A stretch of 64,000 bases of DNA from a virus: UHGV virus genome UHGV-0175639; one strand, 5' to 3'. The translations under genes and the position numbers were made by a program. Shown piece by piece: positions 252 through 51,074 of this stretch. The notes under the pieces were generated by a model that had not been told where the DNA came from, made no database searches, and saw only the letters and a list, made by a program, of their open reading frames with translations. Position 1 is the stretch's first letter; every line of letters begins with the position of its first letter.

Positions 252-1352
252 ATGAGCGAGTCCAAATCGCCGGATGCCCTGAGAGCAATGGTAGCCGGTA
301 CGCTGGCTAATTTTCAGCACCCAACCCTGAAACACAACCTGACTACGCTTAAAGCGTTACACCATGTTGCGTTGATGGATGACACACTGCATGTCGAACT
401 AATCATGCCTTTCGTGTGGAATAAGCCTTTTGAAGACCTGAAAGAGCAATGTAGTGGTGATCTGCTCCGTATCACTGGCGCAAAGGCTATTGACTGGAAG
501 CTGTCGTACAACATTGCCACGCTTAAGCGTGTCAAAAACCAACCAGGCATTAATGGCGTTAAGAACATTATCGCCGTCAGCTCAGGCAAGGGCGGCGTGG
601 GTAAATCCTCCACGGCGGTAAACCTGGCACTGGCGTTGGCTGCTGAAGGTGCGAAAGTTGGTATTTTGGATGCCGATATCTATGGTCCATCAATTCCAAC
701 CATGCTGGGCGCGGAAAACCAACGTCCAACCTCACCTGACGGTACTCACATGGCACCTATCATGTCTCATGGCCTGGCAACCAACTCTATTGGTTATCTG
801 GTCACCGACGACAATGCAATGGTGTGGCGTGGACCGATGGCCAGCAAGGCGCTGATGCAGATGTTGCAGGAAACTCTATGGCCTGATCTGGACTATCTTG
901 TTCTCGATATGCCGCCGGGCACTGGTGATATTCAGTTGACGCTGGCGCAGAACATTCCTGTAACTGGTGCTGTTGTGGTAACTACGCCGCAAGACATCGC
1001 GCTGATCGATGCGAAGAAAGGCATTGTGATGTTCGAAAAAGTCGAAGTGCCGGTACTGGGTATCGTCGAAAACATGAGTGTGCATATTTGCAGTAACTGC
1101 GGTCATCACGAGCCAATTTTCGGCACCGGTGGCGCAGAGAAACTGGCCGAGAAATACAACACGCAGTTGTTAGGCCAAATGCCACTTCATATCTCACTTC
1201 GTGAAGATCTGGATAACGGAACACCAACCGTTATTAGTCGTCCAGATAGCGAATTTACGGCTATTTATCGTGACCTCGCAGATCGCGTTGCTGCCCAAAT
1301 GTATTGGCAAGGTGAAGTAATACCTGGCGAAATCGCATTCCGCGCAGTGTGA
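252..1352 (+). CDS. apbC: Fe-S cluster carrier ATPase Mrp/ApbC
   Basis: 366 aa; Walker A GKGGVGKSS, ParA/MinD fold, CxxC near C-terminus; matches enterobacterial Mrp from memory. Confidence 0.95.
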   Translation: MSESKSPDALRAMVAGTLANFQHPTLKHNLTTLKALHHVALMDDTLHVELIMPFVWNKPFEDLKEQCSGDLLRITGAKAIDWKLSYNIATLKRVKNQPGINGVKNIIAVSSGKGGVGKSSTAVNLALALAAEGAKVGILDADIYGPSIPTMLGAENQRPTSPDGTHMAPIMSHGLATNSIGYLVTDDNAMVWRGPMASKALMQMLQETLWPDLDYLVLDMPPGTGDIQLTLAQNIPVTGAVVVTTPQDIALIDAKKGIVMFEKVEVPVLGIVENMSVHICSNCGHHEPIFGTGGAEKLAEKYNTQLLGQMPLHISLREDLDNGTPTVISRPDSEFTAIYRDLADRVAAQMYWQGEVIPGEIAFRAV

Positions 1353-1389: not shown

Positions 1390-1779
1390 CTACATCACGG
1401 GACAATCATCAAACTCGCCACTTCTTGCGTCGTTGATAATGTGAGTGATCACACCAAACACGGCATTGCTGCCCGTGCATCCATCGTCATCCTTTGGCAA
1501 TGCTTCCTTCTTACCGGTTCTTAAATCCTCCAGATGCTGACGTGGATACTTCCGGTATCTTTTTACGCGATATTCCCCATCCAGAGCGCATACAAGCAGA
1601 GAACCATCAACCGGGGTAAGTGAGGAATCGACCACCAGCAATGCACCCTGTAATATTCCCTCACGATGATGACTATCAGCTGCCCTCATGAAGTAGGTCG
1701 CTGAAGGATGTCTAATTATCTGCTGATCAAGAGAAATACGGCTCTCAGCATAATCCGCCGCAGGAGAAGGGAAGCCCAT
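1390..1779 (-). CDS. UmuD-prime-like S24 peptidase-fold protein (HumD-like; lacks the UmuD N-terminal arm)
   Basis: Starts MGFPSPAADY, matching UmuD just after its self-cleavage site; Ser and Lys of the catalytic dyad context present. Confidence 0.75.
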   Translation of the reverse strand: MGFPSPAADYAESRISLDQQIIRHPSATYFMRAADSHHREGILQGALLVVDSSLTPVDGSLLVCALDGEYRVKRYRKYPRQHLEDLRTGKKEALPKDDDGCTGSNAVFGVITHIINDARSGEFDDCPVM

Positions 1780-1795
1780 AATACTCGCCTCTTAA

Positions 1796-1815
1796 TACTG
1801 TATACACATACAGTG
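1796..1815. promoter_or_regulatory. LexA (SOS) box TACTGTATACACATACAGTG
   Basis: CTG-N10-CAG with AT-rich core, 17 bp upstream of the UmuD-like start. Confidence 0.7.
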
Positions 1816-2441
1816 TATATTGAAGCTATATATTTTTGAACTCTATCTCTTAAAAAAGATGTTAATAAGATGCTAACTATTGAAAGGCATAAATATATAC
1901 AATTCAAACAAACGTTATTTTTAACAAATTTTTTCTTCCCATTGACTTTTTCGAACGCCTTGTCCGGTCTAAAGTGCGCAGAAGTCACTTTTTCCTTCCT
2001 GAGTTATCCACAGGCTTATGCACTTGCATGAAAAATCTATTCACACTATCTTAATTCGCAAGACACTGATGTTGCAGTATTGAGGGTATGTTGGGTTAAA
2101 AATAGACATTAAAAAGCCCAGTTGACTAGGCTGGGCTTTTTAAAAGGAAACAGAGTTTGCGGCTCTGTTCCTGAGCCATAAGTATCTGGCGACTGAATTA
2201 AGATTAACCGAATGTACTGGATTCATCAAGAAACGTTGAGTGGTCATACTAGGTAATAATGACCATTTACTAAACATCGTTGTTCTCAAAGAAGATTTAA
2301 GTCCAGGTTTTTGGTGACTCTAAAACCTTACCTTAACTCGAAATCGTGCCGTAAGTATCTGGCGACTACAGATATTGCAACTGCAAAGGCAAGCCCAAAG
2401 GTATTTGCAGCTAGGCGCGATAAAACTAAGTGAGGCCTGTT

Positions 2442-2525
2442 ATGGTTAACTTACTGTTCAAAATCGTGCCGCCGATGTTCGCGATTATCAAAGCGATCAT
2501 TGAGTACGTAAACCAGCGTCCATAA
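2442..2525 (+). CDS. 27-aa hydrophobic mini-protein MVNLLFKIVPPMFAIIKAIIEYVNQRP (candidate type I toxin-like peptide)
   Basis: ATG preceded by GTGAGG 7 nt upstream; followed by hairpin terminator; short ORF so coding status is uncertain. Confidence 0.3.
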   Translation: MVNLLFKIVPPMFAIIKAIIEYVNQRP

Positions 2526-2539
2526 CGCTAGTTGCTACA

Positions 2540-2562
2540 GGCCCCATCAAGAGCATGGGGCC
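2540..2562. terminator. hairpin GGCCCCAT...ATGGGGCC followed by T-rich tract
   Basis: Inverted repeat between the mini-ORF and the convergent 208-aa gene. Confidence 0.5.
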
Positions 2563-2580
2563 TCTTTATCGTACTATTGC

Positions 2581-3207
2581 TTATTTTTTACGGACTGAGT
2601 TGTTCACTGCTCTGGCAATTTTCTCCCGCAATTGCTGCGCTCCGTGGTACTGAACCGCAATATCCCGCAACTCGTTCACCAGTTCTCTAATCTGGTGATC
2701 TTTAAGCTCATTATTTGGGTGATGGGTAACAACTCTGGTTAATTCACCCTTGTCTTTTGCTCTTACGTATGCAGCTCTTGTGCATTCGACCCATGTATTA
2801 CCGCCTACATTAACTTCGTAGATTAGGCTGGACTTATCTGTCAATTCGGAACAAATACGGGCCGTGGTCTGGCAACTAGAGCATTCGCAGTTATCGCGGA
2901 AACCGTGATCTACCGGTCGAGAAAGAGGTTTAACTTTTTCATCCAACTTCATCACAGCATCGTGATAAGCGTTCCAGCCGTCATCTTTACCAAGTTGATA
3001 AATCTCTGAAGGCTCCATGTAGTCTATATCGCAACCTTCTTCATCCGATCTATCTGGTCGCTTCCCTGGTAATCGCTCATAAAAACGATTTCTGTCTCGA
3101 CGTTCGGCTCTCAGTGCTAACGCAAGAAGTTGCTCAAGCGAGGTATTTGCACCAGCAATAATTTCATTGAGAATATCTTCTGTGAGATCTTTCGCTACCG
3201 TGCTCAT
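2581..3207 (-). CDS. hypothetical protein, 208 aa, with CxC...CxxC cysteine cluster
   Basis: Long ORF, first of the continuous minus-strand gene array. Confidence 0.5.
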   Translation of the reverse strand: MSTVAKDLTEDILNEIIAGANTSLEQLLALALRAERRDRNRFYERLPGKRPDRSDEEGCDIDYMEPSEIYQLGKDDGWNAYHDAVMKLDEKVKPLSRPVDHGFRDNCECSSCQTTARICSELTDKSSLIYEVNVGGNTWVECTRAAYVRAKDKGELTRVVTHHPNNELKDHQIRELVNELRDIAVQYHGAQQLREKIARAVNNSVRKK

Positions 3208-3997: not shown

Positions 3998-4810
3998 CTA
4001 GACACTTCCGAGCCGTTGATAATACTGGTTTTCATATTCTGTCGGTGACATCTGTTCGCTAGAACCATGCCGACGCTTACTGTTATAAAACATTTCGATG
4101 TAATCAAAAATATCACTGCGGGCTTCTTCCCGCGTTCCGTAGATCTTTTTCTTTATCCGTTCACGTTTCAACAACTGGAAAAAACTTTCTGCAACCGCAT
4201 TATCATGGCAGTTACCGCGACGGCTCATGCTACCCTCCAGGCCGTGTGATTTCAGGAACGACTGCCACTCATGGCTTGTGTACTGACTGCCCTGATCCGA
4301 ATGAACCAGCACCTGTTTTTCGGGATTACGCCGCCATACAGCCATCAGCAGTGCGTTCAGGACAATGTCCTTTGTCATCCGGGATTGCATGGACCAGCCG
4401 ATAATTTTGCGTGAGAACAGATCAACAACAACGGCAAGATACAGCCAGCCTTCGTGGGTCCTGATGTAGGTTATGTCCGTTACCCAACGCTCATCAGGAG
4501 CATCCGGATTGAACTGTCGCTGGAGCCTGTTGGGTGACACGATACTGGCCTCGCCTTTACGTGCCCGCGGGCTTCGGTATCCGACCTGAGCCTTTATTCC
4601 GACACGTTTCATCAGTCTCCAGACTCTGTTTACTCCGCACTGTTGCCCGCTGTCACGCAAATCCAGATGGATTTTGCGATAACCATAGACGCATCCCGAT
4701 TCCAGCCAGAACTGTTTAATCTGTCCTGTCAGTCTCAGGTCTGCCTGATGGCGTTGTGAATGCGGCTGCTGAAGCCAGGCGTAAAAACCACTGGGATGAA
4801 CATCCAGCAC
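3998..4810 (-). CDS. IS3-family transposase OrfB (DDE integrase core)
   Basis: 270 aa; WVTDITYIRT...VHSDQGSQYTS...CHDNAVAESFF signature of IS3 OrfB. Confidence 0.85.
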   Translation of the reverse strand: MLDVHPSGFYAWLQQPHSQRHQADLRLTGQIKQFWLESGCVYGYRKIHLDLRDSGQQCGVNRVWRLMKRVGIKAQVGYRSPRARKGEASIVSPNRLQRQFNPDAPDERWVTDITYIRTHEGWLYLAVVVDLFSRKIIGWSMQSRMTKDIVLNALLMAVWRRNPEKQVLVHSDQGSQYTSHEWQSFLKSHGLEGSMSRRGNCHDNAVAESFFQLLKRERIKKKIYGTREEARSDIFDYIEMFYNSKRRHGSSEQMSPTEYENQYYQRLGSV

Positions 4811-4866
4811 CCGACAGAGCAGGCGAACAGGCCAGCAACAGGAGTTGTCACGGATAAAGGCGTACC

Positions 4867-5151
4867 TCAGTCGGACAGCTTTGCGAAGTACGCCGCGGCT
4901 TTTTTTAATATGTCCCGTTCGTCGGTAACCCGTTTCAGCTCTTTCTGGAGACGGCGGATCTCGGCCTGAGCATCTGACTGTTCTTTATTAGTGGAAGAAT
5001 CCGGACCGTACTTCTTTATCCAGGCATAAAGGCTGTGGGTGGTGATATCGAGACGTGTTGCAACGCTGGCAACAGAATAACCGCGATCAACAACCTGTTT
5101 GACTGCTTCAGTTTTAAACTCTTCGGGATAACGCTTACCGCTCATGGGCAC
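4867..5151 (-). CDS. IS3-family transposase OrfA (HTH, leucine-zipper region)
   Basis: 94 aa; EEFKTEAVKQV...HSLYAWIKKY pattern typical of IS3 OrfA. Confidence 0.85.
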   Translation of the reverse strand: MPMSGKRYPEEFKTEAVKQVVDRGYSVASVATRLDITTHSLYAWIKKYGPDSSTNKEQSDAQAEIRRLQKELKRVTDERDILKKAAAYFAKLSD

Positions 5152-10573: not shown

Positions 10574-11140
10574 TTAGAGTGCGTATTGCGTTTTGTGCGG
10601 TTGCTTATTCAAGTCGTGGCGATGCGTAAGCTCCCGCATCATGTCTTCAAGCCGACTTTTCGTATCATCAAGCTGGTCGGCCATTGCTCCCAAAAGCTGG
10701 CGAACGGCCATTGGATCGTCACTGTTTAGTGATGGCATTTTATATCCCGCTTTAGAAGACATAAGATTGATTGCAGACATCAACATCGTTAGAGAAGACT
10801 TAAGTCCGGCAATTTCACGATCTTTGCTGGCAATAATCGTCTCACTATTGTTACCGTCATGGGTTCCTTGAGTCTCGCTCACCATATCCAAAGTCGCCTG
10901 CAACTTATTAGCGCGCTCTTTTTCGGCAAGATAATGAACACCGAAATGGTGTGCCAAAGCTACAACCTGAGTTGGCTCTTCAAAGGTGGAATTAAAATTA
11001 AGTACTGTAAACAGTCTCTCAAATATAGAAACGTCTTCTGTTCCCCGAACAATGCCTAACATTTTGACAAGTTCATTAGCATCCATTTCTTCGAATAGGG
11101 CGTTTTGTTCATCAGCTATTGCTTTGCATTTCTCGCACAT
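10574..11140 (-). CDS. hypothetical protein, 188 aa
   Basis: ORF with conserved leader and upstream AAACAAnTTGTTT motif. Confidence 0.5.
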   Translation of the reverse strand: MCEKCKAIADEQNALFEEMDANELVKMLGIVRGTEDVSIFERLFTVLNFNSTFEEPTQVVALAHHFGVHYLAEKERANKLQATLDMVSETQGTHDGNNSETIIASKDREIAGLKSSLTMLMSAINLMSSKAGYKMPSLNSDDPMAVRQLLGAMADQLDDTKSRLEDMMRELTHRHDLNKQPHKTQYAL

Positions 11141-42979: not shown

Positions 42980-44215
42980 TTAACCAAATATTTTTTGAAC
43001 AACTTCACGAGCCGCTTGTGCAGAAGCTGAAGGGAGTTTGTTAATGAAAGAACGCTCAATACCTGTCACAAAGTCGCCTCGCATCATTCCAATCTTGGCC
43101 GACAACAAAAGTTCACGAGGGCCAATTGGCTGACTAATGAGGTGTTCTTCGTATCCATCGCGAACGATACCGGCAAACTTAACCATCTTTTCAGCGTATT
43201 CATCCACGATGCCTGCATTTGTCAACATGTTGATCTCTGCGTCTTTGCTCATGTATTTCACATTCGAAACGATGCCAAAACGCGAAAAGTTCGCGGCGTT
43301 CTGGATGTTTGTACCCTGGTACAAGCCGGTTTCATCACCAGATCCGTTCGTGTTGCCAGTGCCAATGAAAGCAAACCGTTCATGCGGAGTAATGCGACGC
43401 CATTCTGGAGTTGCCTCTTTGATGACCAACGCTTCACCTTCCAGCACTGGCTGATACACGCCAAGAATTTGTGGAAACGCAAAGTCGTATTCATCCGCGA
43501 GGTAAACCCAGCCATGCTTCATTGCGAGCGCAAGCAAGCCAGGTTCGAAATACGTAGAGCCATCACGCGCCAGAATTTGCCCCGTAACATGTGCCTCTTC
43601 CATTGATGCTGTATGTTGGGCACGGATCAACGGACGATTGAGCAAAGCACATAGCTGTGTAGGCAATGACGATTTGCCTGTTCCTGCATGACCCCACAAA
43701 TAGCCAGGTATGCCAAGTTCAAGCATCATGAAAATATCTTTGATCAGTTCGAAGTCGCCATATACGTAGCCTTTCTTCACTTCGGGAACGAACTCTGGAT
43801 ACGGCGTATTGACGTTGACGCTAACCATGAGCGGCGTCCCACGTTTTGTTCCGAGTTCTTCCACCGTTACGTTTAGCAGTTCGTGAGCTGCGACCAGATC
43901 TGTCTTGTACTCAACTGTGCCTGTGTAGCCAGGGCTACTGGTCAAGCCAGAAGATTTGGCCATTTCGCTTTTTTGCTCGGCACGTTTAGCTTGAATTGCA
44001 TCAAGTGCCTTTTTCGATAGCGTTGGTTCATCTGGAAACTGCGTTGTGTACATTTTCAGTACGGTGTCAGGATCGGCATCTTTTACTGACTCAGGAATGC
44101 CCTCGCAATTACCATTGGCTACATGGGACTTAAAATAGTGAAATGATTTGCCGCACCACTTGCAAACAAGGTAATCAGAAGGATTTTTTTCATTTTGCAG
44201 TGCAGTAGTCGTCAT
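42980..44215 (-). CDS. CobS-like MoxR-type AAA+ ATPase
   Basis: Walker A GHAGTGKS, N-terminal zinc ribbon; CobS/CobT-like pairs are remembered as typical of SSU5-like phage-plasmids. Confidence 0.7.
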   Translation of the reverse strand: MTTTALQNEKNPSDYLVCKWCGKSFHYFKSHVANGNCEGIPESVKDADPDTVLKMYTTQFPDEPTLSKKALDAIQAKRAEQKSEMAKSSGLTSSPGYTGTVEYKTDLVAAHELLNVTVEELGTKRGTPLMVSVNVNTPYPEFVPEVKKGYVYGDFELIKDIFMMLELGIPGYLWGHAGTGKSSLPTQLCALLNRPLIRAQHTASMEEAHVTGQILARDGSTYFEPGLLALAMKHGWVYLADEYDFAFPQILGVYQPVLEGEALVIKEATPEWRRITPHERFAFIGTGNTNGSGDETGLYQGTNIQNAANFSRFGIVSNVKYMSKDAEINMLTNAGIVDEYAEKMVKFAGIVRDGYEEHLISQPIGPRELLLSAKIGMMRGDFVTGIERSFINKLPSASAQAAREVVQKIFG

Positions 44216-48465: not shown

Positions 48466-48563
48466 ATGACAATCACCGAGTTACGCCGATTCACTGTATA
48501 AGTAAACAGTATATTAGGCATAGATTCTTATAGGATCAAGAGTAAAAGTAACTCATTTTCAGT

Positions 48564-50549: not shown

Positions 50550-50636
50550 CTGGCGGAGAGTAATGGAATCGAACCATCATCGTTTGCACAATGGAACGGT
50601 TTTCAAGACCGCTTGAGCACCATGCTCCCTACTCTC
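50550..50636 (-). tRNA. tRNA-Ser (anticodon UGA), long variable arm, CCA encoded
   Basis: Manual fold: acceptor GGAGAGU/ACUCUCC, anticodon loop CUUGAAA, T-loop GGTTCGATTCC. Confidence 0.65.
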
Positions 50637-50827
50637 CAGCTATTGTGATGGTCGGTACTGAACTCCGACACAGGGTTGTAGCAAGCCCCGCAAAGCGCGC
50701 ACTACTGTAGTTGCGGCACATCAGCCTGTGCATTCATCACAACGGTAAGAGCACTGGTCTGACTCTATCGATTTACGGCCTTGTGGGTCAGTATCGCCGA
50801 TTCGCCCAATGCTCTTACCTGTTGTGT

Positions 50828-50903
50828 TGGTGCCGGTTAACGGACTTGAACCGCTGGCCATTCGCTTACAAAGCGACTGCTCTACCAACTGAGCTAAACC
50901 GGC
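50828..50903 (-). tRNA. tRNA-Thr (anticodon UGU), CCA encoded
   Basis: Manual fold: acceptor GCCGGUU/AACCGGC, D-arm AGCTCAGTTGGTAGAGC, anticodon loop UUUGUAA. Confidence 0.6.
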
Positions 50904-50907
50904 AATT

Positions 50908-50994
50908 TGGTGGGGAGTGATGGAGTCGAACCACCCGAGTCGCCATGACAGTAGATTTACAGTCTACACCGCTACCTCTACGGACTAACTCCCC
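50908..50994 (-). tRNA. tRNA-Tyr (anticodon GUA), long variable arm, CCA encoded
   Basis: Manual fold: acceptor GGGGAGU/ACUCCCC, anticodon stem-loop GUAGA-CUGUAAA-UCUAC. Confidence 0.6.
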
Positions 50995-50999
50995 TAAAT

Positions 51000-51074
51000 T
51001 GGCGATGGTGGGTGGATTCGAACCACCGACCAGTTGGTTAACAGCCAACTGCTCTACCGCTGAGCTACACCATC
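51000..51074 (-). tRNA. tRNA-Asn (anticodon GUU), CCA encoded
   Basis: Manual fold: acceptor GAUGGUG/CACCAUC, anticodon stem-loop GUUGG-CUGUUAA-CCAAC, T-loop GGTTCGAATCC. Confidence 0.65.

What the first reader, a model, noticed from the sequence alone, without database searches (positions are those of the whole stretch)
2180..2530. Toxin-like mini-ORF with duplicated sequence blocks, resembling a type I toxin-antitoxin or sRNA locus
A 27-aa hydrophobic peptide gene with good RBS and terminator sits in an 800-bp gap. An 11-nt block AAATCGTGCCG inside the ORF is repeated about 120 nt upstream, and a 17-nt block GTAAGTATCTGGCGACT occurs twice 160 bp apart. Partial duplication of toxin coding sequence in a nearby sRNA is how several type I systems are built, and the locus is next to a LexA-regulated gene.
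Basis: seen in the sequence. Interest (0 to 1): 0.5.

Follow-up and report, generated by a model that had tools for sequence, protein, structure and literature searches.

The report
Unannotated type I toxin–antitoxin-like module

Summary
The window is an SSU5/pLF82-type phage-plasmid. In the 801-bp gap there is a 27-codon ORF (2442-2525) with a Shine-Dalgarno sequence and a terminator.

A 20-nt block occurs twice, at 2175-2194 and 2348-2367 (19/20 identical, 173 bp apart). No dinucleotide shuffle out of 1000 gave a repeat this long.

Copy 1 is the 5' end of a predicted minus-strand sRNA (2194→2108). This sRNA has a conserved sigma-70 promoter, a stem-loop and a terminator. Copy 2 lies in the peptide mRNA leader, 75-94 nt upstream of the ATG.

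Across 11 distinct lineages (Escherichia, Citrobacter, Enterobacter, Klebsiella, Kosakonia; phage-plasmids and conjugative plasmids) the two copies change together. Fourteen pairs changed on both sides, giving four recognition variants. Every one-sided change inside the 19-bp core gives a G·U pair, but only in the sRNA(−)/mRNA(+) orientation.

The ORF is under purifying selection (pN/pS 0.06-0.3).

The layout matches DinQ/AgrB and ZorO/OrzO. However, the Rfam, NCBIfam, Pfam and blastn membership tests all fail, and the ORF is unannotated in almost all records.

The 11-nt block inside the ORF is not above chance, and the LexA link does not hold. Toxicity and transcription remain untested.

The parts
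2108..2194 (-). Predicted antitoxin-like sRNA, about 87 nt. It has a single-stranded 5' recognition tail (AGUCGCCAGAUACUUAUGGC), a middle stem-loop and an intrinsic terminator.
   Evidence: The fold is -34 kcal/mol, z = -5.6. The terminator and stem-loop covary. Covariance model R1 built from the family finds it at exactly 2108-2194 on the minus strand (99 bits), and finds members not used for training at 68-89 bits.
2109..2143 (.). Hairpin of the sRNA terminator. It is palindromic, so it can terminate in both directions (A5-stem-T5).
   Evidence: inverted repeat I1, 13-nt arms, 100% complementary. A compensatory CCCAG/CTGGG to CCCGG/CCGGG change is seen.
2201..2229 (-). sRNA promoter. The -35 is TTGATG (2229..2224), the spacer is 17 nt, the -10 is TAATCT (2206..2201), and the inferred start is the A complementary to T2194.
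   Evidence: The hexamers are conserved in all lineages (TTGAAG/TTGATG/TTGTAG, 17 nt, TAAGCT/TAATCT/TAAGAT) while the spacer varies. PWM scores are 7.2-11.3, the best in the region. The start site is inferred, not measured.
2175..2194 (-). Repeat D1, copy 1. Read on the minus strand, it is the recognition sequence at the 5' end of the sRNA.
2266..2297 (+). Candidate weak promoter of the peptide mRNA: -35 TTTACT at 2266-2271, -10 GAAGAT/AAGATT at 2291-2297, start near 2303. This is tentative.
   Evidence: A low-scoring sigma-70 match recurs at the same position in most of the 12 lineages scanned; in 10 of them one of the three best matches has its -10 ending 53-58 nt upstream of the copy 2 core. 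The consensus scan found no strong plus-strand promoter.
2305..2328 (+). Hairpin at the 5' end of the leader (H1).
   Evidence: RNAalifold, with compensatory changes at two pairs.
2344..2420 (+). Three-way junction in the leader. Long-range helix A:B (2344-2350 with 2414-2420) encloses the target hairpin (2354-2376) and the highly conserved hairpin H3 (2381-2410).
   Evidence: 9 of 30 pairs show changes on both sides, including in A:B (UCGUGCC/GGCGCGA becomes UUUGCGCC/GGCGUAAA in Kosakonia), in the target hairpin and in H3 (C-G to U-A).
2348..2367 (+). Repeat D1, copy 2: the sRNA target site in the mRNA leader, 75-94 nt upstream of the ATG. The loop GGCGACU can pair with the sRNA 5' end.
2432..2435 (+). 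Shine-Dalgarno sequence GAGG, 6 nt before the ATG.
   Evidence: It is conserved as GAGG or AAGG in homologues.
2442..2525 (+). Small ORF of 27 aa, a hydrophobic/amphipathic peptide and the putative toxin.
   Evidence: Purifying selection: 9 synonymous against 2 non-synonymous differences versus L017, pN/pS 0.06-0.3. A 19-member peptide family aligns without internal gaps. The best 19-residue hydropathy window is 1.85.
2539..2570 (+). Intrinsic terminator of the peptide mRNA.
   Evidence: A hairpin is present at the equivalent place in all homologues.
2338..2351 (+). Repeat D3, copy 1 (TCGAAATCGTGCCG). It contains arm A of helix A:B. D3 copy 2, at 2458-2471, lies inside the ORF.
   Evidence: Both copies can pair with GGCGCGAU at 2414-2421. 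As a repeat it is at chance level and is not conserved outside the E. coli clade.

Best explanation
The gap holds a self-contained two-gene module of the type I toxin-antitoxin kind.

Components:
- A fairly strong conserved promoter drives an ~87-nt sRNA from the minus strand (2194→2108).
- A weaker promoter near 2266-2297 drives a ~265-nt plus-strand mRNA (about 2303-2570). It has a structured 140-nt leader and encodes a 27-residue membrane-active peptide.
- The first 20 nt of the sRNA are complementary to leader positions 2348-2367.

Proposed action:
- Pairing probably starts at the loop GGCGACU of a target hairpin.
- It then zips through that hairpin into arm A of the long-range helix A:B, taking apart the conserved three-way junction 75-94 nt upstream of the start codon.
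- By analogy with AgrB/dinQ, IstR-1/tisB and OrzO/zorO, this would block translation indirectly. The routes are loss of a ribosome standby or activating structure, or refolding around the SD. It would also create an RNase III substrate.
- When the plasmid or phage-plasmid is lost, or sRNA synthesis stops, the unstable sRNA decays and the peptide is made. It damages the membrane and kills or arrests the cell (post-segregational killing or abortive infection).

Shown here:
- the repeats;
- the conserved sRNA promoter, stem-loop and terminator;
- co-variation of the two copies, with G·U directionality;
- the conserved leader structure;
- purifying selection on the ORF;
- occurrence only on plasmids and phage-plasmids.

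Inferred:
- transcription and its start sites;
- repression;
- the way repression works;
- peptide toxicity;
- the biological role.
For: - **Host element.** The window matches pLF82 / 'phage Cyrano' / SSU5-type phage-plasmids.
- **Repeat.** The D1 repeat is significant.
- **Pairing register.** The repeat ends exactly where the conserved minus-strand promoter would start transcription.
- **Intermolecular helix over 11 distinct lineages.**
  - Positions 2-20 are paired in every lineage.
  - Fourteen pairs changed on both sides.
  - 0 of 500 shuffles reach the observed values.
  - Slid registers give 30-37% pairing, against 91% in the true register.
  - All one-sided changes inside the core are G·U in the sRNA(−)/mRNA(+) orientation. 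They would be A·C mismatches in the opposite orientation.
- **Recognition variants.** There are four: TAAGTATCTGGCGAC, AATGTATCTGGCGAC (plus the GGCAGC and CCGG sub-variants), GTTGTTAACCGGCGAC and GTATGTGTCTGCCAGC. Each is mirrored in both copies.
- **sRNA.** The fold has z = -5.6 and the structure covaries.
- **Leader.** Nine pairs covary.
- **ORF.** pN/pS is 0.06-0.3. The peptide family is coherent, with two paralogous types sometimes in tandem, and its hydropathy is in the transmembrane range.
- **Geometry.** It equals zor/orz, dinQ/agrAB and dqlB. The sRNA 5' end is about 246-275 nt upstream of the start codon and the target is about 70-105 nt upstream. T1TAdb describes this class (PMC8594479).
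- **Weak reciprocal RNA similarity.** The Rfam AgrB model matches 2108-2189 on the minus strand over its full length. OrzO-P matches the sRNA of L003/L016. Model R1 matches annotated AgrB, AgrA, OrzO/P and the dqlB-linked sRNA over its full length.
- **Mobility.** The module moves between unrelated contexts, often near other maintenance genes such as PHD antitoxin, RES-Xre and repA.
Against: - There is no expression data, and toxicity is untested.
- No convincing plus-strand promoter was found. Only a weak, positionally recurrent one exists.
- The peptide is less hydrophobic than DinQ, ZorO or TisB, and it has a central Pro-Pro and two internal lysines.
- A simple thermodynamic model shows no change in SD accessibility when the target is blocked (0.48 versus 0.47). 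The route from pairing to repression is therefore unknown.
- Co-variation of two direct DNA repeats could in principle come from gene conversion or from a shared DNA-binding protein. Only the G·U asymmetry and the promoter/terminator context argue specifically for RNA pairing.
Confidence: 0.7

Rival explanations
1. The sRNA-mRNA pair is real, but the peptide is not a toxin. It would be an ordinary small membrane protein of the plasmid or phage-plasmid, for example a modulator of a transporter, a superinfection-exclusion factor or a lysis-timing factor. Its synthesis would be tuned by an antisense sRNA.
For: The peptide is only moderately hydrophobic and has a central PP kink and internal charges. 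It has no homology to any known toxin. Many small membrane proteins are not toxic (reviewed in PMC12648545, which was listed but not read).
Against: The architecture is the one used by four known toxin families: a strong sRNA promoter against a weak mRNA promoter, a long structured leader, and a target far upstream of the SD. The module is found only on plasmids and phage-plasmids, and it moves as a unit.
Confidence: 0.2
2. The two 20-nt copies are DNA sites, such as operators, iterons or partition sites, for one DNA-binding protein. They change together because both must fit that protein or because of gene conversion. The small ORF would be an unrelated gene.
For: The copies are direct repeats on one strand, 150-180 bp apart. 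In some plasmids the module lies 1-2 kb from repA.
Against: - All one-sided differences inside the core are transitions that give G·U in one transcript orientation only.
- Copy 1 ends exactly at the predicted start of a promoter-terminator unit, and copy 2 forms a covarying RNA hairpin inside a covarying three-way junction.
- There are only two close copies in the 64-kb window.
- No candidate binding protein travels with the module.
Confidence: 0.05
3. The minus-strand sRNA mainly regulates something else, such as phage-plasmid copy number, lysogeny control or host genes. Pairing with the peptide leader would be secondary.
For: There are sub-threshold Rfam hits to RNAI in homologues. Near-matches to the recognition block lie inside two minus-strand ORFs of the window, at 43753-43768 and 10892-10907.
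Against: The only complementarity that is conserved and covaries in all lineages and contexts is with the adjacent leader. The sRNA and the peptide gene always travel together. The RNAI hits are far below the gathering score (27-31 bits against 47).
Confidence: 0.05

Closest known systems
DinQ/AgrB (with AgrA) of E. coli and the plasmid/chromosomal DinQ-like dqlA/dqlB loci (Weel-Sneve 2013; Kristiansen 2016, PMC5066626)
   Same: - The toxin is 27 aa.
- The sRNA is 80-90 nt and is encoded upstream, divergent and non-overlapping.
- The sRNA 5' end is complementary to a leader segment about 75-105 nt upstream of the start codon, and this shows in the DNA as a direct repeat.
- The leader is structured, with mutually exclusive helices.
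- The sRNA middle hairpin is similar in sequence (CAGAGCCGCAAACUCUG against CAGAGCCACCAACUCAG).
- The AgrB covariance model aligns over its full length to 2108-2189 on the minus strand, and model R1 hits AgrB and AgrA.
- dql loci are also mostly on plasmids.
   Different: - The AgrB score of 27.6 bits is below the gathering score of 40.
- NCBIfam, which names DinQ and DqlB in RefSeq, gives no hit for the peptide.
- hhalign probability against DqlB is 9% and against DinQ 0.2%.
- There is no blastn similarity of leader or ORF to dinQ or dqlB.
- There is no LexA box at the toxin promoter.
- There is a single sRNA copy.
- The duplex is shorter (20-26 bp against about 31-34).
- Some members carry two tandem toxin ORFs.
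ZorO/OrzO (ZorP/OrzP) of E. coli
   Same: - The arrangement is the same: a divergent upstream sRNA with a short (18-20 nt) complementarity at its 5' end to the leader.
- The sRNA 5' end lies 246 nt from the ATG, against 248 nt here.
- Paralogous specificity variants exist (O, P, Q), like the four recognition variants found here.
- The Rfam OrzO-P model aligns over its full length to the sRNA of L003/L016, and R1 hits the orz sRNA.
   Different: - OrzO-P scores 33-34 bits against a gathering score of 60, and does not hit the window copy at all.
- There is no peptide similarity.
- There is no leader similarity.
- zor/orz is almost entirely chromosomal (7066 of 7070 places), whereas this module is on plasmids and phage-plasmids.
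TisB/IstR-1 of E. coli
   Same: The toxin is a small amphipathic membrane peptide. The sRNA is divergent and pairs far upstream of the SD, at a ribosome standby site, and induces RNase III cleavage (from the literature: PMC7708055 and PMC11228461). This is the most likely model for how pairing 75-94 nt upstream could block translation here.
   Different: There is no sequence or Rfam similarity. tisB is LexA-controlled and has an upstream tisA ORF, and neither is seen here.
Hok/Sok, the classical plasmid type I addiction module
   Same: It is plasmid-borne, and the presumed role is post-segregational killing, with a stable toxin mRNA and an unstable sRNA.
   Different: In hok/sok the sRNA is cis-encoded and overlaps the mRNA, the toxin is about 50 aa and is translationally coupled to mok, and control uses 5'-3' fold-back. 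None of this anatomy is present here.

Membership tests
Type I toxin-antitoxin system (general class) | A small (<60 aa) hydrophobic protein gene that is genuinely coding | tested here: met
   The ORF has 27 codons. pN/pS is 0.06-0.3 over up to about 50% synonymous divergence. The SD and terminator are conserved. Hydropathy is in the transmembrane range.
Type I toxin-antitoxin system (general class) | An antisense sRNA gene whose product can base-pair with the toxin mRNA | tested here: met
   Computational evidence only. A conserved promoter, stem-loop and terminator unit is present. The 19-bp core is always paired, 14 pairs changed on both sides, and one-sided changes are G·U only.
Type I toxin-antitoxin system (general class) | Overproduced peptide is toxic, and the sRNA represses its synthesis | not testable with these tools
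   This needs induction, plating and reporter experiments.
DinQ/AgrB (including Dql) | The sRNA reaches the Rfam AgrB (RF02891) gathering score | tested here: not met
   27.6 bits against 40, E = 0.22. The homologues do not hit AgrB at all.
DinQ/AgrB (including Dql) | The peptide matches the DinQ/DqlB protein models or shares their signature residues | tested here: not met
   There is no NCBIfam or Pfam hit at E<=1. hhalign probability is 9% against DqlB and 0.2% against DinQ.
DinQ/AgrB (including Dql) | The 5' UTR is recognisably similar in sequence to the dinQ/dql leader | tested here: not met
   blastn with word size 7 finds only 10-19-nt chance-level matches outside the terminator and sRNA hairpin.
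DinQ/AgrB (including Dql) | LexA box at the toxin promoter (dinQ proper) | tested here: not met
   The only CTG-N10-CAG in 1780-2620 is at 1798-1813. It belongs to the humD-like gene and lies upstream of the terminator at 2109-2143.
DinQ/AgrB, Zor/Orz, TisB/IstR-1, ShoB/OhsC architecture class | The sRNA is encoded 5' of the toxin mRNA, divergent and not overlapping it, with a short complementarity to the leader upstream of the SD | tested here: met
   The sRNA spans 2194→2108, the target is 2348-2367 and the ATG is at 2442. The class definition is in PMC8594479, and the same geometry was measured in L035, L038 and L041.
Zor/Orz | The sRNA reaches the Rfam OrzO-P (RF02083) gathering score, and the peptide is similar to ZorO | tested here: not met
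   There is no hit in the window. Relatives score 33-34 bits against 60. hhalign probability against ZorO is 0.2%.
Hok/Sok | A cis-overlapping sRNA and a ~50-aa Hok-family toxin with an overlapping mok | tested here: not met
   There is no Pfam Hok hit and no Rfam Sok hit. The sRNA does not overlap the predicted mRNA.

The most novel reading that the evidence does not exclude
This could be the founding example of an undescribed type I toxin-antitoxin family specific to enterobacterial plasmids and phage-plasmids.
- The toxins would be 25-30-aa peptides with the consensus M-x-x-L-L-L-K-L-x-x-P-x-x-V-I-I-x5-Y-x3-R, sometimes present as two tandem paralogues behind one leader.
- One 87-nt divergent sRNA would control them.
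- The sRNA-target pair has diversified into at least four non-cross-reacting recognition variants.
- The family would be a remote relative linking DinQ/AgrB and Zor/Orz.
- It would act as an addiction or abortive-infection module for SSU5-type phage-plasmids.
Probability: 0.55. Interest if true: 0.55.

Novelty: new member of a known kind. Interest (0 to 1): 0.5.

Why it matters
- **Maintenance of SSU5/pLF82-type phage-plasmids.** These are common in clinical E. coli (119 of 5426 complete genomes here carry this module), and how they are maintained is little studied. An unannotated addiction or defence module would help explain their stability.
- **Annotation.** The module adds a family to the small set of 'upstream-divergent sRNA' type I systems. 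It also shows that genome annotation still misses them: the ORF is unannotated in almost all of the 94 plasmid records that encode it.
- **A natural specificity experiment.** The four recognition variants, each mirrored in sRNA and target, show how antisense specificity diversifies. They could be used as orthogonal sRNA-leader pairs.
- **Evolution of the class.** The weak reciprocal similarity to AgrB and OrzO bears on whether these families share an origin. That question was raised in PMC11264685.

Tried and rejected
1. **The 11-nt or 14-nt block inside the ORF (D3) as the key antisense element: rejected.**
   - It is at chance level (110 of 1000 shuffles).
   - It is on the same strand as its partner.
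   - It is a repeat only in the E. coli clade, where it follows from the codons for K-I-V-P.
   - Both copies can pair with GGCGCGAU at 2414-2421. However, the downstream pairing is absent in L002/L005 and weakened in L017/L024.
2. **A simple switch in which sRNA binding closes the SD: not supported.** The unpaired probability of SD to AUG was unchanged when the target was blocked in 10 of 11 lineages.
3. **LexA or SOS control: rejected** (the neighbours are not conserved).
4. **Membership of AgrB, OrzO-P, RNAI or Thr_leader: rejected.** All are below the gathering scores, and the Thr_leader hit is just the terminator.
5. **The 53-aa ORF at 1870-2031 as a gene: rejected.** There is a frameshift, a lost start codon and mostly non-synonymous changes in relatives.
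6. **A strong plus-strand promoter for the peptide mRNA: not found**.
7. **Protein-database homology search: not possible.** Exact look-up shows only 'hypothetical/uncharacterized' entries.
8. **Literature searches: nothing found.** Searches for the peptide sequence, phage-plasmid type I TA systems and SSU5 small RNAs found nothing on this locus. The supplements of the dql paper are not held.
9. **A second sRNA copy (like agrA) in the window: none**.

Full report
**Where the window comes from.** The 841-bp interval 1780-2620 matches about 110-kb non-mobilizable plasmids of Escherichia at 90-100% identity: 120 records in the E. coli genome collection and 88 in the plasmid collection. These include pLF82 (NC_011917), which is also deposited as 'Escherichia phage Cyrano'. 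They are SSU5/pHCM2-type phage-plasmids. In the annotated relative LR882992 the order is metG, apbC, an S24 peptidase, an unannotated 800-bp gap, then hypothetical genes. The S24 gene (1390-1779, minus strand) is a HumD-family UmuD' homologue. It has a LexA box at 1798-1813.

**Checking the observation.** The ORF, its GAGG Shine-Dalgarno sequence, the terminator and both repeats are present.
- The long block is 16 nt exact and 19/20 over 2175-2194 and 2348-2367, with a spacing of 173 bp.
- The short block is 11 nt exact and 13/14 over 2338-2351 and 2458-2471.
- In 1000 dinucleotide-preserving shuffles, none gave a 16-nt exact repeat, but 110 gave an 11-nt one. Only the long block is beyond chance.

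**Anatomy from comparison.**
- *Collecting relatives.* blastn in 'distant' mode, and a scan for the most conserved leader hairpin, recovered the same unit in several hosts. These were Citrobacter and Enterobacter phage-plasmids at 52-65% overall identity, a Klebsiella IncFIB conjugative plasmid, and Kosakonia MOBF conjugative plasmids. The flanking genes differ in each case.
- *Extent of the module.* Homology starts at the hairpin at 2109-2143 and ends at the terminator after the small ORF. The module is therefore about 2108-2570.
- *Order of conserved elements along the plus strand:*
  1. a palindromic terminator hairpin with compensatory changes;
  2. a second stem-loop whose stem covaries;
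  3. repeat copy 1;
  4. on the minus strand, TTGAAG/TTGATG, 17 nt, then TAAGCT/TAATCT, placed so that transcription would start at the last base of copy 1. The hexamers are conserved while the spacer drifts;
  5. a variable stretch;
  6. a 5' hairpin;
  7. repeat copy 2 inside a three-way junction;
  8. an SD sequence and one or two small ORFs;
  9. a terminator.
- *The sRNA.* The minus-strand unit is an ~87-nt sRNA (2194→2108). Its predicted fold is a single-stranded 5' tail, a stem-loop and a terminator, at -34 kcal/mol and z = -5.6.

**Evidence that the two copies pair as RNA.** I wrote the sRNA 5' end against the leader segment for 11 distinct lineages.
- Positions 2-20 form a standard pair in every lineage.
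- Fourteen of 26 pairs have changes on both sides, and 0 of 500 column shuffles reach the observed covariation.
- Sliding the register drops pairing from 91% to 30-37%.
- The recognition sequence has diverged into four variants, each mirrored in both copies.
- Wherever only one copy has changed inside the core, the result is G·U when copy 1 is read from the minus strand and copy 2 from the plus strand. This occurs at four positions in several lineages. In the opposite orientation these would be A·C mismatches.
- Concerted evolution of DNA repeats would not produce that asymmetry.

**The leader folds the same way in all lineages.** It has a 5' hairpin and a long-range helix A:B (2344-2350 with 2414-2420). 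This helix closes a junction made of the target hairpin (2354-2376) and the near-invariant hairpin 2381-2410. Nine pairs show compensatory changes. The target hairpin covaries along with the recognition variants. Its loop (GGCGACU) is complementary to the extreme 5' end of the sRNA, which is what one expects of a loop-initiated antisense interaction. In most lineages the duplex extends into arm A, so sRNA binding must open the junction.

**The ORF is a real gene.**
- Between the window and L017 there are 9 synonymous and 2 non-synonymous differences in 26 codons. pN/pS is 0.06-0.3 across all comparisons.
- Relatives carry a second, paralogous small ORF upstream of the window-type ORF, or only that upstream one.
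- All 19 peptides align without internal gaps, with K7, P11, I15, an aromatic residue at position 22 and R26 conserved.
- Hydropathy over the best 19 residues is 1.85-2.26. This is in the transmembrane range but lower than DinQ, ZorO or TisB at 2.5-2.7.
- The flanking non-coding DNA (1780-2110) diverges faster than the module, and its 53-aa ORF is not conserved.

**Comparison with known systems.** I fetched the dinQ-agrAB locus of K-12, a zor-orz locus and a plasmid dqlB locus.
- *Architecture.* All three have the architecture seen here: an 80-90-nt sRNA upstream and divergent, with its 5' end repeated as a direct repeat in the leader 70-105 nt before the start codon. The distance from the sRNA 5' end to the start codon is 246-275 nt, against 248 nt here. 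T1TAdb treats this as the defining layout of ShoB/OhsC, TisB/IstR-1, Zor/Orz and DinQ/AgrB (PMC8594479).
- *Mechanism in dinQ.* AgrB binding far from the SD refolds the leader and creates an RNase III site (PMC5066626).
- *Membership.* It fails every test.
  - Rfam gives only sub-threshold hits: AgrB at 27.6 against 40, and OrzO-P at 34 against 60 in relatives.
  - Pfam, NCBIfam and PHROGs give nothing for the peptides. This is despite NCBI's current annotation naming DinQ and DqlB on about 3000 plasmids.
  - Profile comparison with DqlB, DinQ and ZorO is insignificant.
  - blastn finds no leader or ORF similarity.
- *Weak reciprocal RNA similarity.* The AgrB model aligns end to end with exactly the predicted sRNA. 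A model built from this sRNA family hits annotated AgrB, AgrA, OrzO/P and the dqlB-linked sRNA over its full length at 21-28 bits. This could be remote homology or simply a shared shape.

**Annotation and literature.** The ORF is unannotated in nearly all 94 plasmid records that encode it. It exists in protein collections only as 'hypothetical'. No paper in the searchable library mentions the peptide or a type I system of SSU5-type elements.

**What remains open.**
- No transcript data were available.
- The peptide mRNA promoter is only a weak match that recurs at the same position.
- Thermodynamic modelling did not show that blocking the target changes SD accessibility. Standby-site occlusion, junction disruption and RNase III cleavage are therefore inferred by analogy.
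- The 11-nt ORF block can pair with the same GGCGCGAU segment as its upstream twin. This hints at alternative long-range helices, but the downstream pairing is lineage-specific and the repeat is at chance level.
- Non-E. coli copies have an extra conserved promoter-like block upstream of the shared terminator, which the window lacks.

[quoted passage not shown] It belongs to no described family. It is best classed as a new member of a known kind.

Noticed in passing
L002:2850-2950, L036:1900-2000, L039:1110-1170, L040:1110-1170 (no counterpart in the window): Non-E. coli copies of the module share a conserved block upstream of the sRNA terminator: CAACCTCAATTTAAC...AAAATCAACTCTTGTACT, then 16-17 nt, then TAGAAT/TAAAAT. 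It looks like a good plus-strand sigma-70 promoter aimed at the terminator. That terminator has a poor U-tract on the plus strand in these copies. It could drive a third small RNA, or a read-through transcript antisense to the sRNA.
   Followed up: partly
window 1390-1815: A HumD-family (P1 humD-like, UmuD' homologue) S24 peptidase gene lies on the minus strand. A near-consensus LexA box, TACTGTATACACATACAGTG, sits at 1796-1815. A second good CTG-N10-CAG box (CTGTATAAGTAAACAG) is at 48494-48509.
   Followed up: partly
window 252-1352 and upstream in L001: The phage-plasmid carries its own apbC (mrp) and, in relatives, an adjacent metG (methionyl-tRNA synthetase). These are housekeeping-type genes on a mobile element.
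   Followed up: no
window 1870-2031: A 53-aa ORF in the AT-rich part of the gap is not conserved as protein: it has a frameshift in L022, a lost start codon in L034 and mostly non-synonymous changes. This part of the gap (87-94% identity) diverges faster than the module.
   Followed up: yes
window 3998-5151: An IS3-family insertion sequence (orfA 4867-5151, orfB 3998-4810, minus strand) lies about 1.4 kb downstream of the module.
   Followed up: no
window 43753-43768 and 10892-10907 (minus strand): Near-matches to the sRNA target block (2 and 3 mismatches) lie inside long minus-strand ORFs (42980-44215 and 10574-11140). Two extra matches against 0.33 expected. They may be chance or secondary sRNA targets.
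   Followed up: partly
window 50554-51074: A cluster of four tRNA genes lies on the minus strand. One of them scores just at the tRNA-Sec gathering threshold (47.3 against 47).
   Followed up: no
L003:2803-2879 and L016:1422-1498: The middle hairpin of the sRNA in the Enterobacter lineage appears to be an inverted version of the one in Citrobacter and E. coli (loop UUUGCAC against CCGCAAA). The shape is preserved while the sequence is flipped.
   Followed up: no
window 2581-3207: The downstream minus-strand CDS belongs to PHROG 21749 (unknown function). Its last ~40 residues match many other phage families, including a weak hit to anti-repressor Ant. This suggests a shared C-terminal module.
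   Followed up: no
L034 (JAEWTL010000044.1): A contig labelled as a Bacillota metagenome-assembled genome carries this Escherichia-type module at 91% identity. It is probably a mis-binned enterobacterial phage-plasmid contig.
   Followed up: no
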